A stretch of DNA of 63,092 nt, filler included, from Kipferlia bialata (lineage: Eukaryota), in NCBI GenBank assembly GCA_003568945.1. It is 4 parts of 4 records of this genome, joined end to end, with 100 filler letters (N's around TTAATTAATTAA, not from the genome) between each part and the next. Parts side by side here need not be neighbours in the genome. Positions count along the whole stretch, not along the records: positions 19,300 to 38,485 come from BDIP01000440.1; 3 more parts are not named here. One strand, 5' to 3'. The translations under genes and the position numbers were made by a program. The notes under the pieces were generated by a model. It made no database searches, was not told where the DNA came from, and saw only the letters and a program-made list of their open reading frames with translations. Of the stretch, positions 7,363-38,640 are shown piece by piece; within the stretch, counting starts at the first letter, position 1, and the number at the start of each line of letters is the position of its first letter.

Positions 7363-9443
7363 TCATAAACACTCCTCTCTCTCTCTCCCTGTCAGGTCCT
7401 AGACCTGTCCCTCCTAGGCCACCCCTGGCTGTGTACAGTCTGACATGAGTGCAAGTATCAATGAACGAATACTATTTACATGCACTACTATATATATACA
7501 TGCACTACTATACAAACAGTATCTAATCGTTACCTAGCCAATGTCCTTACTATGACCTCGGTATTAATACATGATATGGAATGGAATGATGTGTTCTACG
7601 GTATCACCTAGCCAAATTTCTTACTCAGTAGGCATTCCCTTTCCAACAAATACTAGGACAACTACAAATAGACTTAGTCTATATAGTACATATTGTCCAT
7701 TATTACCTAGCCAGAGTCCTGACCAGCTCCTCCGAGGGTTCCATGCTGACAACGACATCAGACGCCATGGCGGCACACCTAGAGTGAGACTATCAATACA
7801 TCAAATAATATGATACTATAGGTAATCTCTGTCATGATAGTGTTATACATACGACATCAGACGCCATGGCGGCACACCTGGAATGAGATGCAATATCATG
7901 AATATATACGATCGTATCTACCAAGGCGTGGCACTCAGCATCAGCCTGATCAGTGCACATTGTATATACAAACACACTCTATACATTGATACTTCGGTAC
8001 TATACTTACAGCATATATATATATATACCTAGGCGTAGCACTGAGCATCAGCCTGATCAGTGCTCATTGTATACAAATCCAGTCATATACTTATACTGAT
8101 GCTATTCTATACATATGTGAGCCAATGTATCGCATCTACCTGGGCGTGGCGCTGAGCATCAGCCTGATCAGTGCCTGCTGGAGGGGGAACGAGTGCATAC
8201 AGGGGTGCTTGACACTTGGCGCCATGTTGCACACACAGACTAGCACCGCGTAGATTAGGGAGTCGGCGTGTGGCTCTGTTTTATCTGCGCACCCCTCGCA
8301 TATCTCTGCCACCTAAGCATCAGGCTGAGCAATGCTCATTATCAATATATTCATACCTATACTGATGCTATACTATACATATCTCTGCCACCTTGAGTCT
8401 GATGAATATACAGTATAGGTATAGAATATAATATGCAATACATAATACATAATATATAATATATATAATATATATAATATACTATACATGTCATCAGCCA
8501 CCTTGAGTCTGATGAATATACAATACAGTATAGGTATATAATGTATATATTTATATATGCTATAACAAATATATATACATATATACTATACATATATTAT
8601 ATATACTGTACATATCTGAGCCACCTTGAGTCTGATTGTGTCCCTGTCCCTGGCCTCCTCTGGGTCGATAGAGGCACTCATGGACTCTAGACGTGCACTG
8701 GCATGGGATCTGAGAGGTTAGACAAAGAAGGCATCTTCACAACTTTTCTGGATATATATATATTCATAGACAGATGATATAGAGGCACTCATCGACTCTA
8801 GTCGTGCACTGGCACTAGACCTATGATAATCTTCCCATAAACATTGTATATATAGAGAGAGATATATAACAGATGAAGAGCCACTCCTGTCGTGCTCTGG
8901 CACTAGATCTTAGGTTATATGTATTATACACATTGATATGTATGCTCACAAATGTAAATTGAAATGCGTTCCCCACCTAGCCATTGAGGGAGATATAGGG
9001 ACTGAGAGTGCAGCCAAGAGTGACTCATGCACAGATATCGAAGTATATATATAGAAAGGGAGAGAGTCCTGGTCTAGATATATATACCTTGCCACTGAGG
9101 GTGAGAATGGCACAGACAGTGCAGCCAGGAGTGACACCACATGCTCTGAGACGGCAGTGAGCTCAGACACAATGGTATCCACAGCATCTGGGGATACCAC
9201 TGTATTGCCCTCATCGTCCATCCTGTCCTGGTGCCAGCGGTGAGTCAGAGGGGTAAAGTGACTACTTACTATATACTAATTGTATATATATATATATACA
9301 TATATACGTATACTATATACTGATTATACATATATACATGTATATACACATATAACTATATATATATACAAACTCGTCATCCATCCTGTACTGGTGCCAG
9401 CGGTGAGTCAGAGGGGTAAACTATCCACTAATACACTTACTCA

Positions 9444-9500
<57 letters not shown>

Positions 9501-15500: not shown

Positions 15501-16635
15501 ATATGTATATATATGAATACATATAGGTACCTGCATGCCCCTCACTGCAGCACAGACGGTACATCAGGGTAGGTGTATATACTAGAATCCACATACCCAC
15601 ACCCACCCTCTATATAGGATGTTACACTCATCTAGATAGCTAGTTACATACCTGCATGCCCCTGACTGCAGCACAGACGGCGTCTCTGAAGATGGCCCTG
15701 TCCTGAGGTCAGGAGAGAGGTAGAGAATCAATAGAGATATATGTCAGAGATCAACATAACAGGTAGGGTACCAGCATGCAGCTATTTATGGGAGAGAGAG
15801 ACAAAAGGATGAGTGCTCTCGATATTGCTAACAAGTAGAGTGGAAACTGTCCTGATATCAAGAATGTGCCAAGCATCAGGATATATATAGAAACATAACC
15901 ATGTACAAATATTGATGTATGAATGTATGTATGTATTCACCATACGTTGTCTATTATCAGCCTTAACATAGGATATCCATACCTGAGCCAGTGTCCGTGC
16001 ATAGAACAGTAGTGCTCTGATGAGAGTGGGCTCTCTCTCCCTCTCTCTCTCGACATCCACCTTCTCTCCCTCTGCCTCTCCCCCTGTGAAGAGGTTGGCT
16101 ACTAGGAGAGTCATCAGGAGGGTGGGAATGTGGAGAGACACCTGCCTAAGAGTGCCCTATGGTAAGTAAACAACATTAAATAGTATAGTGAATAGTATAT
16201 ATTGCAGTGTATCTTTAAGGAGAGTCAGCAGGGTGAGTATGGGGAGGGAGACTTCCTAACAGTGCCCTGAAGTGAAAGCCCACCTATATACTTATATAAG
16301 AATAGTACAATTATTGTACAGCTACTTATTACACATATTGTGTAATAAGTACTATCATATGCATATGTTGAGTACTGATACCTGCCACAGCATCGACAAC
16401 ACAATACTTGTGTACATACAAATACATTATTTCATTGTTATTGAATACTGTTGTACATACTCAGTTTACTGATACCTGTGACAGCATCCCTGAGAGACAG
16501 GTGACAGCGAGGACAACAATGTCTGGTGGTTAGATATATATATATATGGCACATAGACACACACACACAGAGAGAGAGAGAGAAAGAGAGATATACAGGT
16601 GACAGCAAGGACCATAATGTCTGGGGATTAGATAT

Positions 16636-16676
<41 letters not shown>

Positions 16677-19199
16677 GGTATGGGACACAGTGCTGCGATA
16701 TATAATACTAGACATGTATAAATGTACCTGTGTTTGATGTATCCCCCTGCGACGCTATATACTATATACTATATACTATATATATATGGACATTGAATCA
16801 CACTATACATACCTGTGTTTGATGTATCTCCCTGCGTGATATATGAGTGTGTGTGGCCAGGTACAGGTACATACACCCACTCCTCACTCTCGTATGACAT
16901 GGGCACATCACCCTCACTCTCACTGTCAACCGCCTCTCTCTCCCTCTCCCTCTCCCTCTCCCTCTCTCTGGGGACTAGTTGGACAAGGGGGGTCAGGATG
17001 TCAAGCAATACCTAACGTGAGTATGTACTATCGTGAATGAACTATCATTAATACTCTACTATACTGTTGATAATTGGGTACTACTTGGACGAGGGGGGTC
17101 AGGATGTCAAGGAGGACCTGAGTGTTAGTAGATAGAGTAATATAGTATATTATGAATGTCAAAATATGCAGTATGGAACAATAATATATGTAAAGAGGGA
17201 TGTCAAGAAGAACCTGAGGTTAACGACAATATGTCTCTATAGGTAGTAAATATTCTTTATCTATATATACCACAGTATTCATACCTTATCAGCCTCCAGC
17301 TCCACCATGACCCGTCTATACATATGGTATACATAGTATATAGCATATATATACAGAGGGTATATACCATAGTATCCATCCATACCTTGTCTGCCTCCAG
17401 CTCCACCATGACCCGCCTCCTGGCCTCCATACCACACACGCCGTCCCTGAGGGTTAGTATATATATAGGTTTGTATATATATACACACATACATACATAT
17501 ATATATGGATAGATATACATAGAAGGAGAGAGAATGAGACTGTCTCCTTGCCTCCATGCCACACACACCGTCCCTAGGGGTAAGGAAGAGGATAGAGTGA
17601 ACAAGTATATATTCCAAGAGATTATTACTGGACTGTCTTCTGGCCTCCATGCCACACACACCATCCCTGGGGGAAAGTAGTATATATGCATATATATACA
17701 TATATGTATATATATACATAAATATAGAGAGAGAAGGAGAGAGAATGCGACTGTATCTATGCCACAAACATCATCCCTAAGGGAAAGCATATATGTATAC
17801 ATATAGAGAGAGAACATAGTGTGTCAGTATATATATATACTTTTGTCCTGTGTGTACCTTAGTGCCTTCAATGCCTGGCTGAGTGTGTCAGATGTGGAGT
17901 ATACATGTATATATACAGAGTTACTACACTGTTTATATATATGTGTATATACTATATACTATTCTGTACCTGAGTGCCTTGAGTGCCTGGCTGAGAGTGT
18001 CTGATGTGGAGTATACAAAAGGTCTATACTAAATACTATATGCATAATATACTATATACAATACATACTATCCCAACCTCAATGCCTTGAGTGCCTGGCT
18101 GAGTGTGTCTGATGTGGATGCAGACACCACAGAGGATAGCAGATCCTGACTGACCTAGTGGTTAAAAAATACAGTGGCGAGAGAGAGGGGGAGGGAGGAA
18201 GGAAGGGGAGGAGACAGAGAGAGAGAGAGAGTCAGATGTGGATGCAGACACCACAGAAGATAGCAGATCGTGGCTGACCTAGAGTGAGGGTATATAGGGG
18301 AAAAGGGGGATGCACAGAGACAGAGACAGAGAGACAACAGAAGGTCCTGGTTACCCTTTGATAAGAGTCTATATACTAAAGGAGAGAGAGAGAGAGAGAG
18401 ATGTGGATGCAGACACAATAGAGGATAACATGTCCTGGCTCTCCAATGAGGTAAGTACATAGAAAGGATAGGAGAGGGAGAGGGAGATAGAGGGAGATAT
18501 ATATATATAGAGAGGGGGGGGGGGGGAGTGAAAGACAGTTGAATGCAGAGGGCTGAACCGACCTGTGATAGGATACTAGCTTACACTCAATCCAGTCACT
18601 CAAAGTCAAGTACTTAGAGAGAGGGAGTCTCACGGGATACTATTCTATTCTGTAGTATACTATCAGACACTCACCCTTCTCAGCATGGACTCATCCAGAC
18701 TTATTGTACAGAGAGAGGGAGTACCAGTACCTCAATCACTAGATACAATACTAACTCTAAGTACTCACCCTTCTCAGCATGGACTCATCACCCAGACTCA
18801 TTGTAGGTTGGTATACAACTCAACTATCTAGATACTATATATAAGTACTTATACTTATATATATATAAGTACTCACCCTTCTCAGCATGGACTCATCACC
18901 CAGACTCATCCTACAGAGAGGGTACTGGTATGTATATATTACTATAGAAGGCTGTACTAAACACTATCATATAGTGAGAACTCACCCTTCTCAGCATGGA
19001 TTCATCACCCAGACTCAGGGACATCTCTCTCTCTCTCTCAGTGTCTCTCTCTCTTGCTGTGAGAGAGTGAGCAAGACTACAGCTCAACACACACTTGAGG
19101 AGAGAGAGAGGGCTCCCTCTCGGCCTTCAGCCACTGGCATTCCTCCACTACAGTCCTCAGCCACTGGCATTCCCCCACTACAGTCCTCAGCCACTGGCA
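7363..19199 (-). CDS. Large multi-exon hypothetical alpha-solenoid (HEAT/ARM-like) protein, 5'-truncated by the contig end
   Basis: Many GT-AG exons with CTNACCCCCAG-type acceptors, e.g. VSLHIPTLLMTLLVANLF...PTLIRALLFYARTLAQ, AVLNTLHSYPVAVGAWACRALCRFLGTLPLSLNTLVEVLDLSPR, RVRTEAMRVLCNLLTPVSSKSQALR and DSLIYAVLVCVCNMAPSVKHP...LIRLMLSATPR. The last exon LYTARGG...EECL ends in TGA at 7363-7365. No family recognised. Confidence 0.6.
19127..19199. repeat. 30-bp tandem repeat (about 2.5 copies) at the contig end
   Basis: Unit cagccactggcattcc(t/c)ccactacagtcct repeats up to the N gap. On the minus strand it reads CQWLRTVV(G/E)E, in frame with the flanking exon. Confidence 0.8.
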
Positions 19200-19299
19200 N
19201 NNNNNNNNNNNNNNNNNNNNNNNNNNNNNNNNNNNNNNNNNNNTTAATTAATTAANNNNNNNNNNNNNNNNNNNNNNNNNNNNNNNNNNNNNNNNNNNN
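19200..19299. other. Artificial contig-join spacer
   Basis: N run, TTAATTAATTAA (stops in all six frames), N run; exactly 100 nt and the same design as the two other joins. Confidence 0.97.
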
Positions 19300-19329
19300 T
19301 GGTATATATATCATATATATCATATATCA

Positions 19330-19471
19330 TATATATCATATATATATATACCTTTGGTGCGTATGTGTTGGACCCTATGCTGACCCTGAAGGCAGCAGGG
19401 CGCATGTCACTGAGTGAGTAAGCGTCATACCAGTAATAGCATGTAGACTATATTCAAAGTGTAGTGTATAT

Positions 19472-19504
<33 letters not shown>

Positions 19505-20885
19505 AATATCAAGTGTGCTGACCCTGAAGGCAGCAGGACGCATGTCACTAGGGGGTGAGTAAGAGTCATACCAGTAATAGCATGTAGACTATATTCAAAG
19601 TGTAGTATATATATACATACATATATATAAATATCAAGTGTGCTGACCCTGAAGGCAGCGGGACGCATGTCACTGGATGTAAAGACGACAGAACCACAAT
19701 ACACACTGTATATACATAGTATACAGATGAATACAAATATGTATGTATATTGAGTGTACTGACGCAGCAGGGCGCATGTCACTAGGGAGTCATACGGATA
19801 GAACATATATATGTAAGTGTATGTAAAGGTATACAATCTAAACTATTGAATACCTCGTGTACAGCAGAGGGAGTCTGTATAGTATATATAGTATAGTATA
19901 GTATATACATAGTATAGTATAGTGTATATATATTCCAGTTAGTACACCTTGCATACAGCAGAGGGAGTCTGATTTCAAACACCCATTATATATACAATTA
20001 CATATAGAGTAAAGTATACTATATATATAGTACTATAAAATATGTATAAGTATAGTATTAACACCTTGTGTACAACAGAGGCAGTCTGATCTCAAACACC
20101 CTTCCATTATTCACATATATATAGTTATAATTACATATAGAGTTAAGTATACTATATATATATACTATATATAGAGTACAATATACATATGAATAAGTAT
20201 AGTAGTGTGTACCTAGTGTATAATAGAGGCAGTCTGATCTCAAACACCCTCCCATTCAGTCTGGGTGCCCTGTACAGATCGACAGGGATGTCGACGAGGG
20301 CGGCCTCACTTGGGGTTAGGGTATATATACATACATATAGGGGGGAGGGAGAGTTGTCAACAAGAGTGGTCTCACATACATACAGTGGTCTCACATACAT
20401 ACATTGGATAACCCTGGTATCTGACATAAATGCAAATACCTGTCCATGACCGCTGGAATAGCCACCCTTGCCAGTGACACAGACATACATATATAGACCC
20501 CTACCGCTATATAGTAAATAGTACACACGCATATATATATACTATATACTATATATATATACTATATACCTGTCCATCACTGCTGGTATGGCCACCCTTG
20601 CCAGTGACACAGAGAGACGGGAGGACGGCTGGATGATGTCGCTGGAGGGTAAGGGACAGAGGGTGAGAAAATGGGATAACACACTATACAAGTACACTAT
20701 CCCAATGATGTGCAACATATATCAAAATACAACTGTACCTATGAGTGACTGGCCGGAGCAGCTCTGCCAGCAGAATCTGGTACATGCTGCCCTTGCCAAC
20801 ACCTAGGTATTAAGGGTGTAGAGGGAGAGAGAGAGAGAGAGAAATTCTAATATATATATACTGAGGAATGAGTGTATAGGGGTGT

Positions 20886-20916
<31 letters not shown>

Positions 20917-23900
20917 AAGATACCTGGCTCTCCCATAATATATATATGTGAACATGTATACATAATTGAATATACCTGGTTCTATATACATGTGTGAATA
21001 GTGTAGATATGTATGTGTGTATAGATATATATTGAGCTTAATATACCTGGTTCTCCCATGGACAGCACTGGCACCTGGACATATACCTATATATACATAC
21101 ATATACCAAAGAGTGTAGATATATATATATATATATGCATATCTATCTATACACACATACCTGGTTCTCCCATGGACAGGACTGGCACCTGGGCACCCCT
21201 CAGGTTGATGGCATCGATGAACCTAGGGGGTGAGATGTATATGAATATATATATACGTAAACATATATACATAAAGGGAGAGAGAGAAAGACAGGTATGG
21301 TACCTCTGCAGAATGGCCGGTGTCACATTGTACCCGTGGCGTCTGATGATCTTCTCGACCTGGGGGTAAGGGTATAAGTATATATATATATAGACATAGA
21401 TATACATATATAGATAGATAGAGAGAGAGAGAGAGAAACAAAATAATAGTGTCATTGTACCCGTGGCGTCTGATGATCTTCTCGACCTAGGGTTATGAGT
21501 ATATATAGAGCATACACAGACACACACACATATATACATATACCATTAGAGTGGAGTATTGAAGACGAATCATGTGTGAGATCTCGAAGTGTCCTCACCT
21601 CCAATCTCTGAGCAATCTCCCTCTCCCTGTCCTCCGACTCACTCTTGGAGGCACGGCTGGATGTCAGAAGACAATATATATAAGAGAGAGAGAGAGGTAT
21701 AGGAAAGGGGACGTTATTCATAATACATTATATACATATATCTCCCTGTCCTCCGCCTCACTCCTGGAGGCACGGCTGGGGTGAGTAATGTATACATATA
21801 TGAGAGAGAGAGGTGTATATAGACAGCTAGATGCTTAGGGATATAGAGAGATGAGTATCCATATATCTTCATGTCCTCTGCCTCCTGGAGGCACGGCTGG
21901 GGGTTAAAGCATGGTAAATACTAAACACTGCTCATCATACAATGTAGTACTCATAGAGGCAGGGTTAGGGTGAGGGGGCGGTATAGTAATAACTGAAGTG
22001 TATACACACCTCTTTGCCACTGGGTGTGTCATTGGCATATGTATATATGTATGTGTGTGTGTGTGTGTATATATAGTATCAATATGCACTATGTACTATA
22101 CATGTACCTCTTTGCCACCGGGTGTGTGTCATTGGCACTGAGCAGAGCAGCAAGGAGCTTGATCATCATGCGGTAGTCCTGGGGGTTAACCATTGTATAT
22201 TGATAGTATTACATATCTAATATATGGCATGCATCAGTGTGGTAGTCCTAGGGGTAACAGAGTACTCAACAAGACAAACAGAGAGACAAAGACTGCTGGA
22301 TACGCATGGGACAGATATCTGCACACAACCACATATATACATAGGTACTTCAACACACTAGATACATGTACAGTATACATACATACATACCTGCTCCGGG
22401 TCTCCCCCCAGTCTGTACAGGGGCACAGAGCGGAACTTCTTCTAAGGGGTTAGATGGGTACCATATCCACACTATATACACATAGTACATATATACTATA
22501 TGTATATACTAATGTACACTACATATACATACTATATATACCTGTCCAAATGTGAATATGCCGGATGCCTCCATGGACGGGTCCTGCTCGATGCAGTATC
22601 GGGACATCTTGCACTCCTAGGGGGTTAGATACATATATAGGTATATATGAATATCAATTATGTATATATTTACGATATAGTAATGGGAGATGTGCTCGAT
22701 GAAGTATCGGGACATCTTGCACTCCTCGAGGGTTAGAGAGAGAGATAGAGATATAGAGAGGCAATTGGTAAAGTAGTGGAAGGTCTGTCACTCCATACTA
22801 CTCGAGGGTATACATTAATACACACATATATACACTATATACAATCTCCAACCTCGAGTGTCTGTCCGAGTGGAGGGCAAGAAGTTACACTACTCATTGA
22901 ATATGTATATACCATAGATATAGATTAACTATATATGCTCTATATATAGTGTATCATCCACATACCTCCAGGATAGACGTGTCTGTCCGGGTGGAGGGCA
23001 GGACCATGACAGCCTGGGGGTCAGGAACATATATACATATATATGAATATATATATATGTATACATGTATATATAATAATACTATCATGTGAAAGTGTGA
23101 TAGTTGTGTATATGGGCAAGACCATGACAGCCTGGGGGTGAGGAACATATGAATACATACCATTTCAAGAGAGAGACAACAGCAAGAATGATCAACATAT
23201 TCGTTCACTGACCAGCTTCACATACTCCCAGAGTCACTAACCTGTAGCTTTACTTTAGCACTCATTGGATTGGGGTGGGGCAGGAAGACCAGCCTCATGT
23301 TGACATCCTCCAGCAGAGGCTCAGTCTCTCTCTCTCTCTCTGTCCCTGTCTCTCCCTCTCCATCTGAATATGAGAACAAACACAGTGAGGGTGTAGACTA
23401 AAGAACTCAACGGGGGTAGAGAGAGATCCTATACCTGCAGCCTTCCCAGTCACTGGGGAGAGCCTCTCGCCCTTGATTAGGGCAACCCTGGAGTGAGACA
23501 ACCTCAATACGTAGTTGGAATGCATTCATATATATACTATGTTTACTATGTTTACAGTACAGAAACTCTACTACTACTTCTTGGATGTTTCCACTGTGAG
23601 GAGTATATCGATAAATACAATACACAAAACATACCATACCCATACATACACAGTATACAATGCCCATCTATCTATACCTGTTCTTGAACGTGTCCACTGT
23701 GGACACACGCACAATATACATACTAGTCCATATATATACATATACCTCAGTATATATATATGTACATATATACACACACATATACATATATCTAGATACA
23801 TATATATATACCTGTTCTTGAACGTGTCCACTGTGAGCACTGTGGACACACGCACAAGGGCGTCAAACAGACCCCTGGAGAGTTAGCACGTATACTAGAG

Positions 23901-24085
23901 GTGGACATATACATATATATACATGGAGTTATCTATGTATAGATATAGGCACAAGGGCATCGAAGAGACCCCTGGAGAGTGAGTGGAGAATAGTGATAGG
24001 TTGAGGCACATAGCGACAGCGAAATATGTCAAATGAACGAGAATACAGAAGAAACACTGTCCCCTTACTGTATATAAAATAAATA

Positions 24086-24131
<46 letters not shown>

Positions 24132-26366
24132 TGATGTGGTATATGTCCACTGTGTTGATGATGCGGAAGAAGGTACATATATATACATATATACATATAT
24201 TTATATATATATACACATATATAGTAGTGTCCCTATACTCTATCATGTGGCATATACAGATAGTACCATACCTGATGTGGTATATGTCCACTGTGTTGAT
24301 GATGCGGAAGAAGGTGTGGCCCAGGATCCTGGGGGTAAGAATAGGGCATATATATATGGATAGATAGATAGATATATAGACAGGTAGAGAGAGAGAGAGA
24401 GAGAGATGCGGAAGAGGGTGTGGCCAAGGATCCTGGGGGTGAGTACTAGAAGAGTAATGCATGTGTGTATATATAAAGAAGGTCCAGACCATATGGCACA
24501 TAGAACACAGTATATATATACATGTAAATACCTGATGAAAGTGTCAATCTCAGTTAATGATAGGCCCCTCCCACACTCCACAGACAGCCTTGAGAGGAGA
24601 TCGAGACCAGCCTTGACAACGTCATCAGAGACACGGCCACCCTGGACCTATGGTTAGTAGTCTCTCTCTCTCCTACATGTAGAAGACTTGAAGTACAAGG
24701 ACTGGGGGATAGTAATGATGATTCTAACCTGTGGCCCCATCTCATTCTTGATCTGCTGCATGTGCTATTCAGCAGAATACACCTATACTCTGTACTAACA
24801 TATATATAGTATATATATATATATACTTGGTTACATAGTGTATATACTTGGTTATATACTCACTTGGGGTCCCATCTCATTCTTGATCTGCTGCATGTGC
24901 TTCTCGGCAGAATACACATATACTCTGTACTAACATTATATAGTATATATAATAGTATACATATATATATATATACATACATATATATACCTGTGGTCCC
25001 ATCTCATTCTTGATCTGCTGCATGTGCTTCTCAGCTGCATGGGCACTCTTCTTGACAGACTGCTTGAAGGACTAGATGTTAGTATATGTATATAAGAAAA
25101 ATGTATATATATATAGAGAGAGAGAGAGAGCGAGAGAGAGAGAGTAGTATGGGCACTCTTCTTGACAGACTGCTTGAAGGACTGGGTATTAGTATACATA
25201 TATAGATAGAGAGAGAGCGAGAGAGAGAGAGAGAGAGAGAGAGAGTAGTAGCATGGACACTCTTCTTGACAGACTGCTTGAAGGACTAAGGGTAAGTACT
25301 ACATGTCTGAAAAGAGAGAGAGAGAGAGAGAGAGACACGTACACTCATCGCAAGAGAGTACATACACATATGAATATACCTTGGTCTGTACCAACTGATG
25401 GCACGTGGCCACCACCACAAAGCATATCCTGGACCACTGGGAGATGGGGGAGTAGGAGGTGCCAATAGCCTAGGGGTGAGGTATATGTATATACTGTATA
25501 TACTATGTATATACATATATATATTATGTATATCCTGGACCACTGGGAGATGGGGGAGTATGATGTGCCGATATCCTAGAGGTAAGCAACGAACGAATGA
25601 TATATATACAGCGAATACAGTATATACCTCACTGTCTGCGTCCTTGTCCCCTGCATGCACCCCCACTCTATGTATAGTGTATATACTATACTATATACAC
25701 TATCATATATAAATATATAGTATATATACCTCGCTGTCTGCGTCCTTGTCCCCTGCATGCACCCCCACCCTGTGTACAGTGTATATACTATACTATATAC
25801 ACTACTATATATATAGATGTATATACTGACCTCACTATCAGCGTCCCTGTCCCCTGCATGCACCCCCACCCTGTGTATGGACACATAGGACTGGGGCTTG
25901 GCCTTGTACTTGGCAGCTGTGGAGCCTAAGGGGGTAGAGAGAGAGAGAGAGAGAGAGGTGACTGGGCCTTGTACTTGGCAGCAGTGGAGCCTAGTAGGGT
26001 CAGAAGACATATACATATATACACTTGTATATATATAGTTATATATATATATGTATATATATATATAGGACTGGGCCTTGGATTTGTACTTGGAGGCTTT
26101 CGATCCTAGGGGGTTAGAGAAGAGAGAGTGGGGGGGAAGATGGAGGGAGAGAGAGGGGGGGGAGAGAGAGAGAGATGACTGGGCCTTGGCCTTGTACTTG
26201 GCAGCAGTGGAGCCTAGGGTTAGAGAGATAGTTTGGGAGTATCCAGAAATGGACATAGCAGCTATGTATATAGTACACACACATACCCAGCAGGAAGTGT
26301 GACACTGGAAGGAGTGTGTCGAGGTAGGCCTCGGGGGTCATGTCCACATCAGGCTGATATAAGGGT

Positions 26367-26400
<34 letters not shown>

Positions 26401-27184
26401 GCCTCTGGGGTCATGTCCACATCAGGCTGATATAAGTGTGTATAAGGGTGTCGACAGAGAGAGAGAGAGAGAGAGAGAGAGTCCAGAGAGGTCCCCACCA
26501 GGCTCTGGGGGGAGACGTGTACAGTAATACTAATACAACAGAATAACCATTTAGTGTACAATGAACTACCCCTACCTCCTTTGCCTCCCCCTTCTTCCCC
26601 TTTCTCTTCTTGGCCTTCTTGGGCTTCTTGCCCCGGTTGGCTATGACCTAAGGGTAAGGAACACATTAATATATCATATATACTATATATATACTATATA
26701 TATACTATATATTCTATATAGTAGCATATGTCTATATACAATATGACCTTCTTGGGCTTCTTGCCCCGGTTGGCAATGACCTAAGGGTAAGCGAATATTG
26801 AGTTGGTGAGTGTGACTATGTATATACACTATATGTATGGTATATCAATAAACCTGTTGGCGTGTCCTGAGGACATGGAACAGGTATCGGTACAAAGTAT
26901 ATATATACCACTATACACAGTATATGTAATACATATAGTATAACGATACAAATTATAATGTGTAGAAAATGAGCACCTGCTGTGGTGTCCTGAGTACATG
27001 GAACAGGTGGTATACATACTATACATATATAATATACTCTATCCACTGAATATACATACACTATATATACAGTATATATACAGTATATATACCTGCTGAG
27101 GTGTCCTGAGGACATGGAACAGGTGGTATATATTACCATACTATATATGAATACTAATGTATTTTACAATACTCTGGGCACAGC

Positions 27185-27215
<31 letters not shown>

Positions 27216-27316
27216 TATATCTATATACACCTGCTGTGGTGTCCTGAGGACATGGAACAGGTGGTAGTTGGGCACGAGGGACTGGGGGACAAGGGCTGAG
27301 ATAAGGATATATGAAT

Positions 27317-27356
<40 letters not shown>

Positions 27357-28431
27357 TTGGGCACAGGGGACAAGGGCTGGAGGGTGAGGATACAGAAGCA
27401 TGCACATACACTATATGTAGGCATCACACACATATATATAGTAACTGGGTCTGTCTTGACTGGATCCATATACACACATATCAGATAGATACTACATTAT
27501 GACATATACACCATATACAATATGTATATGTATACACACACATATATACATATATATACAGTACCTGGGTTTGTCTTGACTGGATCCACCGAGCACAGGG
27601 TCCTGTCAGACAGAGAGCCTGGGGGTCAGTGTGTATATACTCATACTGTACAGTGTATATACATATATTATATATATATACCGAGCACAGTGTCCTGTCA
27701 GAGAGGGAGCCTGGGGGTCAGAGAGGTACATATCAGAGGAAACAGCAACAGCTAAACGTATGTAGAATTCACAAGTATAGGGTTTCACACTCTATGCATA
27801 GTATACCTAGTGCTGGTAGTTCTAGGAACAGGTGCATCTTGCACCCCACCCTGAGACAGGGGCTGAAGGTGTACAGGCCAGTGTCATCTGATATCAGAGA
27901 GAGAGAGGAAGAGAGAGAGGGAGGGAGAGAGGGAGATGTATACAGCATATACTCTAGTTGTATAGAGTACATATAGATACAATAGAAATAGGCTGAAGGT
28001 GTAGAGGCCAGTGTCATCTGGAATGAGATACATACTGTATACAATACAAGTGCCATATGTACAAAGAGTACAGGGAGAGGGAAAGACAGTCACTAACCTG
28101 TCACACTTCCAGTGAGCAATAGGTTGGTCAGCACATGGTGTACAGCGATGTATATAAACACATAAATATATAGTATACTCACATACCTGTCACACTCCCA
28201 GTGAGTAATAGGTTGGTCAGCACATGGTGCACAGCAGTGGGTATATTGTGAGTAATAGGTTGGTCAAGACGTGGTGGACAGCAGTATGTATATATATATA
28301 TATATAGTATATAAATATACGTTTATAAATAAATATATATACCTGTCACAGATCCTGTCAACAGCAGGTTGGTCAGCACATGGTGCACAGCAGTATGTAT
28401 ATATATATATATATAGTATATATATATATAC

Positions 28432-28472
<41 letters not shown>

Positions 28473-29221
28473 GGATATATACCTGTAACACTCCCTGTCA
28501 ATAGCAGGTTGGTCAGCACATGGTGCACGGCGGTGGGGTCAGCAAATAGACTCAGGTCCTGAGGGGGTTAGATACGGCGTATAACATATACACTGTGTAT
28601 AATGTAGTATATAATCTAGTATACATATATACTAACAGACACACATATATATAGACAGCGGTGGGATCGGCAAACAGACTCAGGTCCTGAAGGTTATATA
28701 ACTGATGCTTACAATACATTCTGGGTGTGTAATAGTGTAGTATACAAATACATGTACTAATATGTATATAGTATATATGCACAGTGGGGTCGGCAAATAG
28801 ACTAAGGTCCTGGGGGGGGTTAGATACAGATATGGAGGCGTGGGTTTCTATATAAATTTTTTTTCTATATATATTCATATTTGTGTATTCACACACCATG
28901 TGGAGTCCAATGTTCTGCTTGTTCTCTAATTCTCCCTCTCTCTCTCTCCCTCCACTATCTCTCTCTTTCCCTTTCTACATATACACATATACATATATAT
29001 ATACATACATATATATACATGTTACATACCATGTGGAGTCCAATGTTCTGCTTGTTCTTGGGGGCAGCTGGGCTGAAGGAGGCCTGGGGTGAGGGGGATA
29101 TACACATTTATACATAGAGTATATACATAAAGAGTATATACGATATTCATATACACATACAGCTGGGCTGAAGGAGGCCTGGGATAAGGGGGGTGGAGAA
29201 TATTAGTATATACAGCAATAT

Positions 29222-29257
<36 letters not shown>

Positions 29258-29853
29258 GAGCATATTATGTATATCAGCTGGGCTGAAGGAGGCCTAGAGT
29301 GAGTCTTAGCACTTAGACAGAGGATACAACTAATATAAATAGAGTATATACATCAGAGTTTATACTGTAGGGCTGAAGGAGGCCAAAGACCATACCTGGT
29401 AGAGCTCTGAACAGGGACCAAGGGCCACAGTATATATATATTGAATGTACATATATGACATATGACACTGATTGAATAGTACATACATACACTTAAAAGT
29501 ACCCTATATATATATGCTGTACCTGGTTGAGCTCTGAACAGAGGCCTAGTGCGACGCATGAGTTGTAGGACTCGTCAAAGATAAGCCTGGGGTCAATCTA
29601 TACACATAGATATACATATATACTTATAGATATATACATACATATGTAGATATACATAGAAAGACAGAGAGATGCTGTAGGACTCATCGAAGATAAGCCT
29701 GGGATAAAGTCTAATCAAAATAGATTAAATGACACCAAATAATACTGTATCGCAAAATATGGAGAGCGATATACATATCCACATATATACCTCCTTCTGC
29801 ATGCACTCCCCAGACTTCATACATGCAACATAGTATACTGTATACATATTGTA

Positions 29854-29897
<44 letters not shown>

Positions 29898-30127
29898 CCT
29901 CCTCCTACAGGCACTGCCCAGTCTCAATAGGGCACTCCTCATCAGGACATGGTGGATACACATAGTATACTGTATACATAATGTATATATATATATATAT
30001 ATATATATTAGTATATATATACCTTCTCCTACATGCACTGCCCAGTCTGAGCAGGGCACTCCTCATCAGGACATGGTGGGTCTTGCCACTGCCAGGGGCA
30101 CCTAGGTATAAGGTATACATATATATG

Positions 30128-30159
<32 letters not shown>

Positions 30160-30492
30160 CATGGTGGGTCTTGCCACTGCCAGGGGCACCTGGAGGGTTA
30201 GGTATACATATATATATATATATATATAGGGAGAGAGAGAGAGAGACATGGTGGGTCTTGCCACTGCCAGGGGCACCTGGATACATAAGTATGCATATAT
30301 ATGTACATATATAGGTACATTACTGTATATATATATATATATAGGGAGAGATAGAGACATGGTGGGTCTTGCCACTCCCAGGGGCACCTGAGGTTAACAC
30401 CATATATGTATACAACACTATGAATGCGGGTATATATATAGGGGGGGGGGGACTGCCAGGGGCACCTAGGGGGTTAAAGAGTATATACGTAA

Positions 30493-30527
<35 letters not shown>

Positions 30528-31386
30528 TGGTGGGTCTTGCCACTGCCAGGGGCACTTAGAGTTAAAGGTAAAGGATCATATACACACATGGGATATATAG
30601 AGAGAGATAAAGCATGTTGACTCTATATGTACAATATAACACAGTACCATAAATATATATATAGAGAGAGAGGGTGTATACCTGCCACTATCTCCGTTGT
30701 GATGGACGTGGACAGGATGTTATACAAATAGTACATATAGTATAGGACAGTGTACCGGACATATGTATACTATTAGATATACATATAATGCAGTACCTGC
30801 CACAATCTCTGTTGTGATGGACGGGGACAGGATAATGTAGAGAGACTATACTCATTCATATATACCACTACATATATGCCACTATATACATATACCAGTA
30901 TAGTGCATACCTGCCACAATCTCTGTTGTGATGGACGGTGACAGGATGTTGGGTCGGGCCTTACCAAGCTGCTTGAGCTGGTATTAGTGTATATAGTATA
31001 CTAATAGAATACTTGAATAGAGTATATACACATAGGAGAGATAGAGAGAATGAGATTTAGGAAGGGATGTTGGATCTGGCCTTGCCAAGCTGCTTGAGCT
31101 GGGGGTGAGTGTGAAGTATCATACACATGTGGTGAAAATAGGGTACAATGTGTAGTACGCCATGTATCGATTGCAATCCCAACCTGCACTTCCATCTTGG
31201 CCTTGTCAGGCACCACCTCGGGGTGGAATGATACTATACATCATATACATATATATGTACATATATATATATTACATTGTATATACTCATGGTATAGTGT
31301 GTATATATAGTAATATATATATATATACCTGCACTTCCATCTTGGCCAGGTCTGGCACCACCTCTGGGTGGTATGATACTATAAAT

Positions 31387-31417
<31 letters not shown>

Positions 31418-31995
31418 CATATATATATAACATATACACTATACACTCATGGTATACTATATACATATATATATATTGTATTTACCAACCTGCACTTCCA
31501 TCTTGGCCAGGTCTGGCACCACCTCGGGGTGGAATGATACTATACCCACACTTCCATCTTTGCTAGGTCTGGTACCACCTCGGGGTGGTATGATACTATA
31601 CATCATATATATATTTATATATATATCATATATATATAACATATACACTATACACTTATGGTATACTATATTTATACCTGCACTTCCATCTTGGCCAGGT
31701 CTGGCACCACCTCGGGGTGGTATGATACTATACCCAATACATCATATACATATATATCGTATACACTATACACTTATGGTATACTACATATATACCTGTA
31801 CTTCCATCTTGGCCAGGTCTGGCACCACCTCGGGGTGGTTGAGGAGCTCAAGCACACCAGAGAGAGACTGGCTGGTACTGATATTAGTGGATATAGAAAT
31901 CTATAGTTAGTATATATAGAGAGAGAGAGAGGGATCTGGGTGGTTGAGGAGCTCAAGCACACCGGACAGGGACTGACTCTTGCTAGAGTAAGAGT

Positions 31996-32026
<31 letters not shown>

Positions 32027-35000
32027 TCTGGGTGGTTCAGAACAGACACCGGACAGGGACTGGCTGGTGCTAGAGTTAGTCAATAGACAAAGAGTGAGAG
32101 GTGTAATATCTACCTTCCCACTACATAGCACAGCTTCCCCCTCAGTGACAGAGTGGTGTCAGGTAGGACTGACACCAGGTCTGGGTTGACTGCTGTGTTG
32201 TCAGAGGACCCAGCAAGAGGTCGCCTCAGAAGGGCACGCTGGAGGCGCTCAATCTGCTATTAGACACTGTTGTATATATATGACTATTGTACATATATGA
32301 CTATATATATATACAGCAAGGGGACGTCTCAGAAGGGCACGCTGCAGACGCTCGATCTAAAGAGTCAGATGAAACATGAAAATAACGAAGTCTATACATA
32401 CATTAACCAACACACCTCTGTACCTTATACCTCTGTATTAGTATATATAGTAGTATACATATAGTATATACACATATCTCCATACCTCTCTGACCAGTCT
32501 GTGGCTGAGGTAGTCAGGTGATAGAGCATTTCATTTATTGCATATACATGTACTGTATATGTATCATATATACCATAAGTATTACATAACATACCTCTCT
32601 GACCAGTCTGTGGCTGAGGTAGACAAGTGATGATAGTAGAGGATAGCATACATAGTATATATATCCTGTATTATATACATTTAGTATATCCACACACATA
32701 CCTCTCTGACCAGTCTGTGGCTGAGGTAGTCGGGACGCAGCAGGAGGACACGCCTGAGATGAGGTACACGTTGAACAATATCCACATATACTAGTATACA
32801 TACCTAGATGCATAACCAGGAGGTACCACACAGGTATATAGATAGAACAGCAGAAGAACACACCATGGGTAAGGTATGGCATAGTACAGTTTACGTATGG
32901 TACATACACACAAATTAAGATGGAGGGCATGTGAAACAATTCCTGTTTGTGTGTGACTCACTCGTCATGCACATATATGCATAGAATACGGTATCACTAA
33001 CCTGTTGGTATGTGCCACACTGGCAAACACCCTCCTCAGATCAGCTATATATTATATATGCAAATATATAATGAATTACTCAACCTGTTGGTGTGTGCTA
33101 CACTCTGGAAGACCCTCCTCAGGTCTGCTGTTGTGGTATGGGGGCCACACCAGTAGAGCTGGCTGGACCTGGGTCTGTACCCAAACACAAGATGCAGGGT
33201 GTATGTGAGAGCGTCCTGGAGTAAGGGATATACATATAGAGCGAGAGAGAGAGTATATGGGTCTGTACCCGAAGACAAGGTGCAGTGTATAGGTCAATGC
33301 ATCCTATAGTGAGGGAGGGGGGGAGCTGACGATATATATATATATATATACACAGCATATACACCTCATGAGTATAGGACATTGCCTCTGTCTGACTCAG
33401 TGGGTACTGGGTATATAGTGTATAGGTATGTATAATGTGTATTCATATATATATACATACAGTATACACCTGGTGTGTGTATGGCATGGCCTCTGTCTGA
33501 CTCAGTGGGTATAGGTAGACTACTAATGTATGCACATGGCATATACATATATATATATATATGCATATATACACTAATACATATATAGTATATAGTCTAT
33601 ATATACCTGGTGTGTGTATGGCATGGCCTCTGTCTGACTCAGTGGGTCCTGTGTCCCTGCTATACCAGGGGGTAGACGCACAAACAGCTGCTGGGCACCT
33701 ACATGTAAGATAACACTTACAGCAATAATCACACCCAGATATAGCGACAGTAATAGATGTGTGTATAAGTATGTACACATACCTGGTCCACCAAGGTCTG
33801 TTGCAAACTGCATCAGGGAGCGTCTCATGAACTTTCCAACGGTGTGGGGGATGCATGCACTGGAGGGGGGGAACTGGGGTAAAGAATGGCCTGTATATAT
33901 ATATATATATATATACAATACATATACGTTATATCAAAATTGTAATGTGTATTGGGGAGTGCATGCACTGGAGGGGGGGAACTGGGGTAAAATACGACTA
34001 TAGTATATATATATATATAGATACAATACATATACGTTATATTTAAACTGTAATGTGTACTGGGGGATGCATGCACTGGAGGGGGGGAACTGGGGTGAGA
34101 CATGGCTATATATATATGTATATACTATATATATATACACTATATCAAAATTGTAATGTGTATTGGGGGATGCATGCACTGGAGGGGGGGAACTGGGGTC
34201 AGTATCTCTCTACAACATATATATCATACACAACGTATCAATCAGAAGTACATCTCAGTATACAGAACATCTACATACCTTAGTCACTGTGACTAGCCCA
34301 TGTATACAATGATATACATATATATATATATATATAGTGAGTATATATATAATGAGTAGATATATATCTAGTGTACCTTAGTCACTGTGACTAGGCCTGT
34401 TGCCTGGATGCCAGCCAACAGATGCCCAATCTCACACAGACACTCGGAGACCTGGATTAGACAGACATATAAGCACATATAGATGTATACACACACATAT
34501 ATATATTCACAAATATATATGTGTAAATACTTGGCCAATCTCACATAGGCACTCGGAGACCTGGGGGTCAGATATATATATATCAGATACAAATACATAT
34601 ACGTAAGTACTATGTATAGATATGTACAAATATATACCTTGTGCATTCCTAGCAGGAGGTCCCACTGGATGGGCAGGTCGGTATCACCCCTGCTCCTCCT
34701 CTCTCTCTCCCTCTCCCTCTCCCTCTCCCCCTCTGTAATGCCAGTCTCTATCTGCTTGGCCTTGGCGGCCCTAAGCATCTTGCTACGGTGCCTCTGGAAG
34801 TTAGAGATACAAACGGTACTCGTGGGGAAGAGAGAGAGAAAAAAAAATTGGTACCTGCACCCTTTCTAGCTCCATCTGCTTCTCCCTCTCCTCGCTGTCC
34901 TCATTGATGGTGTATATACATGTATATATATATGTACATATACATAGTATAAAGCTAGAGCATCAAAGACAAGTACCTGCACCCTTTCTAACTCCATCTG

Positions 35001-36499
35001 CCTCTCCCTCTCCTCCTCACTGTCCTCATTGATAGTGTATATACATGTATATATAGTATATATATACATAGTATATACATATACCATAGATATGTACCTG
35101 TACTCTCTCTAGCTCCATCTGCCTCTCTCTCTCCTCCTCACTGTCCTCATTGATGGGGGGGAGGGCCTCTGCTGGTACCTCTTCCTCTGGTATCTAGAGT
35201 TAGTGACACACATATATATAGATTGATAGACAGAGAGAGAGAGAGATTAGTCATTGATGGGGGGGAGGGCCTCATCTGCAGGGGTATCCTCGGGTATCTG
35301 GTGTTACTATATACGTGTGAATTTACAGATATTAATGTACATACAGACTTTACCTCTATTGGTAGCATGTTGTCTGGCCTGAGACTCTCTCTCTCTGTCT
35401 CTCTCTCTCAATNNNNNNNNNNNNNNNNNNGGCCTGAGACTCTCTCTCTCTGTCTCTCTCTCTCAATATATATATATATGTATATATATATATGTATGTG
35501 TGTGTATATACCTCTATAGGCAGCATGTTGTCTGGCCTCAGACTCCTCTCCAGCTGGGGGGACCTGGCCTCATAGGCTGCAACACTGGGGTTAGTATACA
35601 TATATATGTATACTAATTAGTACATATATATATATACACTGGGGTTAGAGGGTATATACATATATATGTATACGTATTAGTACATATATAAATATACAGA
35701 TACAGATACATATATAGAGAGGGAGCTGTGGGGGACCTGGCCTCATAGGCTGCAACACTGGTATTATAGGGTATATACATACATATACATATATATACAT
35801 ACACATAGGTATATAGAGAGAGGGCGAGAGGGGGGGGGGGGTATGGGGGACCTGGCCTCATAGGCTGCAACACTGGGGTGAGAGGGTATATACATATAAT
35901 TGTGGACATATTGGTGTATACATTATATATATATAGTATATATAGAGAGAGAGGGGTATGGGTGGGCCTGGCCTCATAGGCACATATAGATAGATAGATA
36001 TACTTATATATATATATAGACAGAGAGAGAGAGAGATACCTGTATATGTCAGTCTCGCACAGAGGCTTGGGGGGCAGGACAGGGGATATATACATACATA
36101 GAGTAATACTACTACATATATACACACACATGTATATAGAGTAACACTAGCATATGTATATACCTGTATATGTCTGTCTCGCACAGAGGCTTGGGGGGCA
36201 GGACAGGGGTGAAGGCAGAAAGTCCCTGGGAGGTAAGAGTATAGGGAGAGGAAGAGAGAGATGGGGGTAAGGAGAGATGTAGAAGTTGAGAGGGGGGGGA
36301 GAGAAAAGAGGTAATGAAGGTGAAAGCAGACAGGCCCTGGGGTAAGCTCTTGTATGTGCGCTGAAATATATAATTACATTTATATACTTATGTACATTAG
36401 AATACCTGGTGTGCCGTCACAAGCTCTTGGATGTGCATGACATTGGGTGTGTGCCTCCTAAAGTACTTGTCAAGGGAGCCCTAGGAGTCAATACATATA

Positions 36500-36532
<33 letters not shown>

Positions 36533-37053
36533 CATAGATATTCATATATATATGTAGAGAGAGAGGGAGAGAGAGATGGATGGATGACATAGGGTGTGTG
36601 CCTCCTGAAGTGTTTGTCAAGGGAGCCCTGGAGTCAATATACAGATATATATATACAGATATATGTAGACAGATAGAATCGTACCCTGACCCTTCTGAGT
36701 GTGTCTGGCTCAACCTCCAGGGGGGTGTCGCTGATGCACCTGAAATTAAGCAGTGTATGTATATAGTGAGAGAGAGAGAAAGGAATACATGGTATATATA
36801 TGCATATATATATGTGTGTGTGTCTGGCCCCAGAGGGGTGTCACCGATGCACCTAGAGGTAAGTGTAGTCACTTAGATACACACAGAGACTGGTGAGTAA
36901 GATGGTATACAATTAACTCACTTGAATACATGAAAGAACAATACACTATCCCACCTCATGAGTGACACTATGTCCAGCATTGGCTCAAGGACTGACTGGT
37001 GATATATATATCATACTATATATACATGTATGTATCATGATATATCATAACTG

Positions 37054-37084
<31 letters not shown>

Positions 37085-37810
37085 CTCATGAGTGACACTA
37101 TGTCCAGCACTGGCTCCAGGACTGACTGGTGATATATATAATAGCCACATATATATATATACATCATAACTACTTATACATGTATGCATCATGATATATC
37201 ATAACTGTATATATATATGTATATATATATATGTCATACCTCATGAGTGACACTATGTCCAGCACTGGCTCCAGGACTGACTGGTTCCTGTCACACTGGG
37301 CACGGTAGTGCAAGGCACTGAGGTAAGTTAAATAAATATATATATATATAGAAAGAGAGAGAGCACTGGGCACGGTAGTGCAAGGAACTGGGGTAAGAGA
37401 AATAAGGGTGTAGGGAGAGAGAGAGAGAGAGATAGGTGTACTATAGATCAACTGTATACATGTCCATAACCAACAGGGCCTTGCTCACTGACAGGAATGA
37501 CAGTAGAAGGTGTATATATACATAGCATACTATATATATATATATACAGTATAAATATATTTACCTGTCCATCACTAGCAATGCCTTACTAACAGGCAGG
37601 AATGATAGCAGAGGGTGTGTGTCCATGACAGCAGCAAGACATGCAGGCCACTCAGTACGGACAGTGTCAAGCTCCTGAAGGGTTAGATATACATAAGGAA
37701 AGTCTATAATACATTACAGAACCAATATAGTACAAGTGTGTGTAATGTATACATAGACATGCAGGTCACTCAGTACGGACTGTATCTAATTCCTAGGGTA
37801 AGAGCGACAT

Positions 37811-37843
<33 letters not shown>

Positions 37844-37937
37844 CGTACAGCTATCACATCCGATAAGAAGTCTGCATCGATGTCTGAGTCCAACAGATAT
37901 ACATAGATATTATATACTCATATACTTAAATACATAC

Positions 37938-37968
<31 letters not shown>

Positions 37969-38485
37969 CATACCGCAATGACATCCGATAAGAAGTCTGC
38001 ATCGATGTCTGAGTCCAACAGATATACACAAATACTATTTACATATGTATACATATATTATGTATATATATATATATACGTATAGTGTAGATATACACTA
38101 CTATAACACACTACATACCGCTATCACATCCGATAAGAAGTCTGCATCGATGTCTGAGTCCAACAGATAGGCACGGCGGAAGGCAGCAGGGTAGCCTGAA
38201 GATGAGAGAGAAGAGACGCAGATAGATAGAGAGAGAGAGAGTATACATATACATCATTCATACATACTATATTACTACAACTAGATTACGTATATATATT
38301 CTACACGGTACCTATATTGTGTAGCCCAGCCAGTGTGTCAGGAAGGGTATATATATATATATACACAAATATGTATACATATGCATGCATTCCTATATAC
38401 TACAATAGTACTATTGTACTACGTATGTATATTCTACACGGTACCTATATCGTGTAGCCCAGCCAGTGTGTCTGCCAGGTGTGTC
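19330..38485 (-). CDS. RNF213/mysterin-like (dynein/midasin-related) multi-AAA+ protein, internal fragment with dozens of small exons
   Basis: The spliced translation has blocks in the same order as the RNF213 AAA core as I recall it: PRSSQLYWCGPHTTTADLRRVF, LLLRPDYLSHRL, Walker A GAPGSGKT (exon 30023-30101), IGLHMDLSLFADPTAVHHVLTNLLLTGSVTDDTGLYTF...HLFLELP, and GYNVTPAILQRFIDAINLRGAQVPVLSMGEPGVGKG (exons 21161-21222 and 20739-20802; compare RNF213 YELTTDNMLKILAIEMRFRCGIPVIIMGETGCGKT). Neither end is in the contig. Confidence 0.72.
28097..28811 (-). repeat. Exon-echo array around exon 28483-28558
   Basis: Two upstream copies carry acceptor plus 5' half (about 28657-28690, 28780-28811). Three downstream copies carry 3' half plus donor (about 28342-28393, 28186-28240, 28097-28147). 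All encode parts of DLSLFADPTAVHHVLTNLLLTGSVT with different codons. Confidence 0.9.
29789..30560 (-). repeat. Exon-echo array around the Walker A exon 30023-30101
   Basis: Five upstream copies of the GAPG(SGKTHH) exon start, one truncated and one with an altered acceptor. Two downstream copies of ...LGSACRR|gt. Spacers are (TA)n/(GA)n-rich. Confidence 0.9.
31182..31870 (-). repeat. Near-identical tandem exon-echo array (EVVPDLAKMEVQ|gt, about six copies)
   Basis: acctgcacttccatcttggccaggtctggcaccacctcggggtgg recurs near 31182, 31327, 31488, 31549 (partial), 31675 and 31794 (complete exon). Part of the spacer (tatgatactata...) is duplicated as well. Confidence 0.9.

Positions 38486-38585: not shown

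Positions 38586-38640
<55 letters not shown>

What the first reader, a model, noticed from the sequence alone, without database searches (positions are those of the whole stretch)
28097..28811. Intronic 'exon echoes' that keep the protein sequence but change the codons
Seen: the complete exon (28483-28558) ends AAC CTG CTA TTG ACA GGG AGT GTT ACA G|gt. Three incomplete downstream copies read AAC CTG CTG TTG ACA GGA TCT GTG ACA G|gt, AAC CTA TTA CTC ACT GGG AGT GTG ACA G|gt and AAC CTA TTG CTC ACT GGA AGT GTG ACA G|gt. All encode NLLLTGSVT, including a two-base Ser switch (AGT/TCT) and TTG/CTC Leu switches. The two upstream half-copies both encode DLSLFADPT with different third positions. Each copy has only one splice site and a different microsatellite-rich flank. 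Established: neutral intronic duplicates should decay equally at all codon positions. Inference: each echo was once a working exon half. One model is one-sided recombination or repair from a divergent allele (homology in the exon, exit in a TA/GA microsatellite) that installs a new half-exon with its intron flank and displaces the old half, so introns become an archive of past alleles. The alternative is that echoes are still used by an unusual splicing or template-switching route. I know of no described system like this.
Basis: partly seen in the sequence, partly recalled or inferred. Interest (0 to 1): 0.93.

Follow-up and report, generated by a model that had tools for sequence, protein, structure and literature searches.

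The report
Introns storing halves of old alleles
In the protist Kipferlia most exons examined are flanked by half-copies of themselves, which the main transcript skips where tested and which differ from the working exon almost only at silent positions, likely because they are halves of other working alleles left behind by misaligned recombination in a very diverse population.

Summary
The gene's 45 exons translate exactly to a public Kipferlia bialata protein. Across five gene models, 70 of 95 exons carry 158 half-copies: 5' halves with acceptor upstream, 3' halves with donor downstream. Differences by codon position are 71:35:310, and pN/pS is 0.10 (0.08-0.13); simulated neutral copies give 0.50-0.54 at 0-fold over 4-fold sites against 0.11 seen. 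In a 1.3-kb test stretch, a public run's DNA contigs carry copies and exons together at single-copy depth, and a spliced contig skips every copy. The few replacement changes look like recent unselected decay; the silent ones do not, and the intron flanks rarely match. Best reading (0.6): copies come from other working alleles, about 0.25 apart at silent sites, through mis-registered recombination. No second allele was seen, so that step is inferred. The scan noted a weaker, neutral-looking case in a sea urchin gene. My paper searches found no description of this.

The parts
28483..28558 (-). Complete working exon (exon 21 of 45), DLSLFADPTAVHHVLTNLLLTGSVT
28655..28686 (-). Upstream copy 1: acceptor plus exon bases 1-32, 4 silent differences
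28784..28809 (-). Upstream copy 2: acceptor plus exon bases 1-26, 2 silent differences
28343..28394 (-). Downstream copy 1: exon bases 25-76 plus donor, includes the AGT/TCT serine switch
28250..28285 (-). Downstream copy 2, cut at both ends, no splice site; 6 silent differences in bases 25-53
28187..28241 (-). Downstream copy 3: exon bases 22-76 plus donor, 7 silent and 1 replacement difference
28098..28150 (-). Downstream copy 4: exon bases 24-76 plus donor, 9 silent and 2 replacement differences
19352..38195 (-). Host gene fragment, 45 exons, 1170 aa, equal to P0001 (NCBI name: K. bialata hypothetical protein KIPB_002591, partial); probably a dynein-related AAA+ protein; 90 copies at 39 exons
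32035..33325 (-). Read-test stretch: three exons and their copies; DNA contigs match without differences, spliced contig skips the copies
7707..19056 (-). Second gene model (own curation, other contig): 35 copies at 17 of 24 exons, pN/pS 0.13
45146..49530 (-). Third gene model (membrane protein; MATE-like by recall only): 11 copies at 7 of 16 exons, pN/pS 0.21
49664..50555 (-). One exon (50381-50456) with one upstream and six downstream copies, 19 silent and 1 replacement difference
51898..56052 (-). Fifth gene model: 15 copies at 6 of 9 exons, pN/pS 0.12

Best explanation
The introns hold tandem units of about 112 nt, each half an exon plus its splice site plus a piece of intron, which the main transcript skips where tested; the exon halves likely come from other working alleles of a very diverse population and were likely put there by mis-registered recombination. 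Inferred steps: alleles are alike only in exons, so strand exchange starts there. Sometimes only one end of a break pairs with the other allele, copies half an exon and most of an intron, and is then end-joined, which leaves a half-exon inside the intron. Later unequal exchange or conversion between a copy and a working exon of yet another allele multiplies or refreshes copies at the same cut point. Selection removes products that duplicate coding sequence, so only outward-facing halves survive. Once in the intron a copy decays without selection (at most about 0.026 changes per site so far), about ten times less than the distance between alleles (0.29 at 4-fold sites). The spliceosome would pick the splice sites closest to the whole exon.
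For: Shown: geometry never reversed and intron order never broken, 0 of 20. pN/pS 0.103, interval 0.077-0.133; 0.129 in the 58 single-copy arrays; nearest copies alone reject a ratio of 0.5 at p=1e-23. Simulated neutral copies under the same boundary rule give 0.50-0.54, minimum 0.35. Copy against copy: 111 of 503 4-fold and 55 of 1982 0-fold sites differ, so copies are about as far from each other as from the exon. Changes in a nearer copy where a farther copy equals the exon: 33 of 326 4-fold, 10 of 1259 0-fold. 20 of 32 informative site pairs fail the four-gamete test, 17 of them in the focal array. 0-fold changes run GC to AT (45 of 1723 against 21 of 1640, p=0.006) and 4-fold changes do not; replacements are no milder than random, p=0.19, with 2 stops. 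Only 8 of 150 copies match the exon's own next 15 intron bases at 13 or more, and 0 of the 23 copies identical to the exon do. DNA and spliced contigs as. Context: crossovers fall in exons in a hypervariable fungus (PMC4209137, abstract); fornicates lack Ku end joining and Rad51A and carry two Dmc1 paralogues (PMC8516963, section 8).
Against: No divergent allele was observed: none among proteins, none as other letters in X1 or X2, none in metagenomes. The implied silent diversity (0.25 uncorrected) exceeds the 0.20 reported for Schizophyllum commune (PMC4576712, abstract). Junctions show no microsatellite excess. The model does not by itself explain why the exon part (median 30 nt upstream, 40 nt downstream) and the intron piece (median 79 and 78 nt) are each so uniform and uncorrelated. 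Flanks are nearly unalignable while 4-fold sites are only 0.29 apart, which needs introns to change much faster than silent sites. Young identical units could be collapsed by a short-read assembly and so be under-counted.
Confidence: 0.6

Rival explanations
1. Silent-cassette cycling: old same-chromosome duplicates exchange sequence with the exon in both directions, and harmful copy variants are purged whenever they are converted into the exon, so copies stay coding-clean without foreign alleles.
For: Copies identical to the exon still have unlike flanks, 0 of 23 matching, as expected if conversion is confined to the exon part. 0-fold differences are rarer near the splice site, 21 of 1136 against 65 of 2122, p=0.04.
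Against: My own rate argument (inference, not run): conversion frequent enough to purge replacements would also erase silent differences, giving a ratio near 0.5 or more unless population size times mutation rate is extreme, which returns to the best explanation. Single-copy arrays show the same bias, 0.129.
Confidence: 0.15
2. Copies are still translated through a rare or unusual splicing or template-switching route and are kept by selection on protein.
For: Splice dinucleotides are kept in 66 of 71 upstream and 75 of 79 downstream copies; acceptor scores equal those of true sites; 3 of 7 internal indels keep frame. Contigs drop rare variants, so minor use is not excluded.
Against: The one X2 contig joins exon to exon across both introns with no other letters, and the loose end at 32114 is the working exon, not its two upstream copies. 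Use of the nearest copy's site keeps an open frame in 5 of 97 arrays. No GT or AG consensus at cut points, 17 of 76 and 11 of 82. Retention of 94% is what 0.026 decay per site gives. Two stops and four frameshifting indels.
Confidence: 0.08
3. Silent sites in working exons change much faster than intron DNA, so each copy is a snapshot of the same lineage's exon at an earlier time.
For: Farthest copies are more often the more diverged, 22 against 8; 19 4-fold sites have all copies agreeing against the exon.
Against: Changes that break a ladder are just as silent-biased, 33 of 326 against 10 of 1259; four-gamete failures; intron flanks are more, not less, diverged than silent sites; pS hardly rises with rank, 0.25, 0.26, 0.23, 0.23.
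Confidence: 0.07
4. Assembly or library artefact: haplotypes stacked in tandem.
For: Only short-read contigs were available, from one sample; copy lengths stop at 57 nt and the unit is close to a short read's length.
Against: X1 contigs of 476 and 624 laid bases run through copy, flank and exon with no difference, at depths 436 and 417; the 35-nt piece common to three copies has depth 1140. The 19-kb contig has one 18-base gap. A join from mid-exon into intron DNA needs words present in the reads.
Confidence: 0.05
5. Ordinary neutral tandem duplicates; the silent excess comes only from selection on the working exon.
For: The geometry is that of tandem duplications across a splice site; an earlier scan note explained a sea urchin case this way.
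Against: Expected ratio 0.5 or more, observed 0.11; copy-against-copy ratio 0.13 where about 0.5 to 1 is expected; flanks not shared.
Confidence: 0.02

Closest known systems
Human F7 intron 7 37-bp VNTR (PMC1557585, abstract read)
   Same: Tandem repeats whose unit spans an exon-intron boundary and leaves silent decoy donors behind the true one; the most upstream donor is used.
   Different: One locus, donor side only, identical pseudo-sites. Here both sides, 70 of 95 exons, units of about 112 nt, unlike flanks, codon-patterned divergence. On the acceptor side the last, not the first, site is used.
Internal gene duplication and intron gain by tandem duplication (Gao and Lynch 2009, not held, seen only as cited; PMC4974935, passages read)
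   Same: Short tandem duplication inside genes that includes exon-intron structure.
   Different: Those cases add an intron or coding sequence and start from identical copies. Here gene structure is unchanged, copies are skipped, and differences are ten times rarer at replacement sites.
Crossing-over in hypervariable Schizophyllum commune (PMC4209137 and PMC4576712, abstracts read)
   Same: Alleles 0.13-0.20 apart at silent sites, with exchange concentrated in exons: the setting the best explanation needs.
   Different: The abstracts report no duplicated half-exons; here diversity is inferred from one genome, not measured.
Tandem exon duplication with mutually exclusive splicing (recalled)
   Same: Neighbouring exon copies with a silent excess.
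   Different: Those are whole exons with both splice sites and are used; here all but two copies are halves and are skipped where tested.
Silent donor cassettes for segmental gene conversion, such as vlsE, pilS, chicken immunoglobulin pseudogenes (recalled)
   Same: Unexpressed partial copies that keep coding features.
   Different: Those vary amino acids at one locus; these vary silent sites in unrelated genes.

Membership tests
Neutral junction-spanning tandem duplicate (F7 type) | Direct repeat spanning an exon-intron boundary with a decoy splice site | tested here: met
   Geometry never reversed; sites kept in 141 of 150
Neutral junction-spanning tandem duplicate (F7 type) | Decoy sites silent in the main transcript | tested here: met
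   Two introns and one loose end in one contig; public model P0001 skips all copies
Neutral junction-spanning tandem duplicate (F7 type) | Intron part of the unit as alike as the exon part | tested here: not met
   8 of 150 flanks at 13 of 15 or better; 42 of 158 detectably related
Neutral junction-spanning tandem duplicate (F7 type) | Replacement to silent divergence of 0.5 or more | tested here: not met
   0.10-0.11 against 0.50-0.54 simulated
Mutually exclusive duplicated exons | Whole copies with both splice sites | tested here: not met
   Only 2 near-full copies, of one 38-nt exon, neither reaching the acceptor
Mutually exclusive duplicated exons | Copies appear in mRNA | tested here: inconclusive
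   Absent from the one contig laid; contigs drop rare forms
Intron gain by tandem duplication | Duplication creates a new spliced intron | tested here: not met
   Units lie inside one skipped intron; no GT or AG consensus at cut points
Silent gene-conversion cassettes | Copies donate sequence to the expressed exon | not testable with these tools
   Needs several isolates or lineages
Allele relics from mis-registered recombination (proposed) | Copy variants occur as working alleles in other isolates | tested here: inconclusive
   No other isolate found
Allele relics from mis-registered recombination (proposed) | More than two source sequences, mosaic site patterns | tested here: met
   6 of 113 variable third positions show three or more bases; 20 of 32 pairs incompatible, mostly one array

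The most novel reading that the evidence does not exclude
Across the Kipferlia genome most intron DNA is a layered record of past alleles: a non-canonical recombination system routinely leaves half-exons of other individuals beside the working exon, so one genome preserves a sample of a population more diverse at silent sites than any eukaryote in the papers I saw, and the spliceosome ignores a decoy site beside most exons by choosing outward from the whole exon.
Probability: 0.5. Interest if true: 0.9.

Novelty: new variant of a known kind. Interest (0 to 1): 0.8.

Why it matters
If true, a single genome records sex or allele exchange and extreme diversity in a free-living fornicate, a group in which these are hard to observe. 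It would add a route of intron growth: 10,502 of 15,331 intron bases of the host gene lie in these units. It also offers a large natural set of decoy splice sites of near-normal strength in a species with a reduced spliceosome (87 of 174 proteins, no snRNA candidates found; PMC6679479, passages), which makes exon definition against scanning directly testable. The layout and the silent bias stand whichever mechanism holds.

Tried and rejected
No whole genome was held, so counts rest on the window. One insertion splitting an exon into both halves: rejected, since presence of upstream and downstream copies is independent (p=0.41), cut points do not coincide (permutation p=0.37) and copy numbers are uncorrelated. 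Fixed copying length: exon and intron parts are not negatively correlated. Microsatellite exit: no excess at junctions. Second allele or other isolate: none; the search with an exon of the second gene found no protein at all, not even its own, so that model lacks outside support. No RNA holder is on record; X2 is a guess, though its contig is spliced. Pfam and solved structures gave nothing for P0001 or single exons. The first automatic gene model wrongly took in copies and was replaced by hand curation. Three exon ends were off; they were corrected, whose figures I quote, while searches ran before all three were fixed (one 58-nt exon was out of frame, which works against the silent excess). 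16 of 174 hits were dropped before counting (far from the splice site, GA-rich or under 18 nt). Exons of uncertain boundary in the second and fifth gene models were left out.

Full report
Setting. The window is four joined contigs, with spacers at 19200-19299, 38486-38585 and 57757-57856. The finding lies in the contig 19300-38485. I curated a minus-strand chain of 44 GT-AG exons without stops. With the last exon added, its translation equals P0001 at 1170 of 1170 residues; NCBI names P0001 a partial hypothetical protein of Kipferlia bialata. The Atlas places it near dynein-related AAA+ proteins, best score 0.96, with AAA_5 on 35% of that cluster; Pfam and solved structures gave nothing. The gene's function does not bear on the finding. 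The published draft genome of this species was built from short reads with SPAdes and annotated with transcript hints (PMC5874029, passages and section 7). I did not establish that the window comes from it.

The observation. A self-search of the window gave 212 direct repeat pairs, 211 of them within 1 kb. Scanning the introns beside 95 curated exons of five gene models on three contigs gave 174 hits. I kept 158 (76 upstream, 82 downstream) at 70 exons and dropped 16. The same rule applied to foreign introns gave 1 hit in 1849 pairs. Only the host gene's model has outside confirmation; the others are my own curation.

Anatomy, shown. Upstream copies hold the acceptor and the 5' part; downstream copies hold the 3' part and the donor. 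The reverse never occurs, and in 0 of 20 introns with both kinds is the order broken. Steps from splice site to splice site have a median of 112 nt (quartiles 101-127), and copies are 18-57 nt even for exons over 110 nt. The intron piece has a median of 79 nt upstream and 78 nt downstream. Splice dinucleotides are kept in 66 of 71 and 75 of 79 copies. Exon plus nearest unit would be 150 nt or more in 92% of arrays, a size only 7% of real exons reach; a limit on exon size may be what makes the units tolerable (inference).

Real DNA, skipped in RNA. In 32035-33325, contigs of run X1 cover 32035-32510 and 32702-33325 without a difference, each through exon, flank and copy, at depths 436 and 417. 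The 35-nt piece shared by one exon and two copies has depth 1140, near three times. No other letters were listed. One 6190-nt contig of run X2 joins the three exons, skipping 331 and 448 nt at GT-AG, and its loose end at 32114 is the next working exon rather than either upstream copy.

The silent bias. Differences fall 71:35:310 on codon positions; pS 0.255, pN 0.026, ratio 0.103 (0.077-0.133 by bootstrap over 97 arrays); per gene model 0.09, 0.13, 0.21, 0.12, 0.015. A neutral copy beside a constrained exon should give 0.5. Simulation with the same boundary rule gave 0.50-0.54, never under 0.35, against 0.107 at 0-fold over 4-fold sites. The bias holds with one copy per array (0.11-0.14), in single-copy arrays (0.129), between copies (55 of 1982 over 111 of 503) and for changes that break a ladder (10 of 1259 over 33 of 326). 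The earlier scan note e1-9861148 reported 43 of 107 silent changes in a sea urchin gene and called them neutral (unchecked AI note, its data not seen). That explanation fails here.

Two layers of difference. The 0-fold differences run GC to AT twice as often as the reverse (p=0.006), and the 4-fold ones do not (contrast p=0.011). Replacements are no milder than random (p=0.19) and include 2 stops; 4 of 7 internal indels break frame. I read this as a thin layer of unselected decay (0.026) on a thick layer laid down under selection (0.29, corrected). The flanks agree: only 8 of 150 copies match the exon's next 15 intron bases at 13 or more, and none of the 23 copies identical to the exon does. 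A duplicate from the same chromatid with 0.026 decay would match. Copies are about as far from each other as from the exon, 6 of 113 variable third positions show three or more bases, and 20 of 32 site pairs are incompatible with one tree, 17 of them in the focal array. This points to many sources rather than two.

Mechanism, inferred. Alleles that are alike only in exons can pair only there, as reported for S. commune (PMC4209137, abstract). One-sided invasion followed by end joining (the pathway is recalled) gives exactly one half-exon with its own splice site and flank. Metamonads lack Ku-type end joining, and fornicates lack Rad51A and have two Dmc1 paralogues (PMC8516963, passages and section 8). 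Shared cut points (36 of 61 neighbours within 3 nt, 21% expected) with unlike flanks (10 of 61 related) call for a second step: unequal exchange or conversion between a copy and another allele's exon. Whether the resident or the incoming half ends up as the copy cannot be told; the outward rise in divergence (22 against 8) fits displacement. Against this reading: no second allele or isolate was found; the implied diversity passes the 0.20 of S. commune (PMC4576712, abstract); junctions show no microsatellite excess; and the uniform lengths are unexplained. Exchange among cryptic species would serve as well as one very diverse species.

Comparison with what is known. The unit works like the F7 intron 7 repeat, whose decoy donors stay silent because the most upstream one is chosen (PMC1557585, abstract). 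It fails two tests of a neutral duplicate: shared flanks and a ratio near 0.5. It is not intron gain by duplication (PMC4974935, passages) and not mutually exclusive splicing. Gao and Lynch 2009 could not be read and may hold related cases. Searches listed no paper that describes half-exon copies with a silent excess, in Kipferlia or elsewhere, judged from titles and abstract openings; the K. bialata genome paper has no occurrence of 'duplicat' in its main text. The library lacks most subscription journals, and I read no supplements, which could bear on this.

Verdict. The feature is real, general in this window and not explained by neutral duplication or, as far as tested, by assembly. The allele-relic mechanism is the best fit at about 0.6. 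I class it as a new variant of a known kind, interest 0.8.

Noticed in passing
window 48853 (minus strand) and copies at 48953, 49039, 49131: The exon's 3' splice site reads AT, not AG, after a normal branch-like motif, and all three upstream copies carry the same AT; a GT-AT intron is likely. No RNA check.
   Followed up: partly
window 38600-44000: Block poor in microsatellites and free of local repeats, with long open stretches at 41110-41658 and 42236-42751; no Pfam match. May be a mobile element or an intron-poor gene.
   Followed up: partly
window 14625-14734: Perfect 55-bp tandem repeat with an intron piece of only about 11 nt, an ordinary recent duplicate among the copies.
   Followed up: no
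window 5818-6552 (minus strand): Open stretch of 245 codons without a Pfam match.
   Followed up: partly
window 9089-9250 (minus strand): Exon whose acceptor could not be placed in frame with a normal context; two upstream copies share the same start; left out of the counts.
   Followed up: no
window 50565-50876: Long C-rich and CT-rich run between two exons of the gene with the six-copy array.
   Followed up: no
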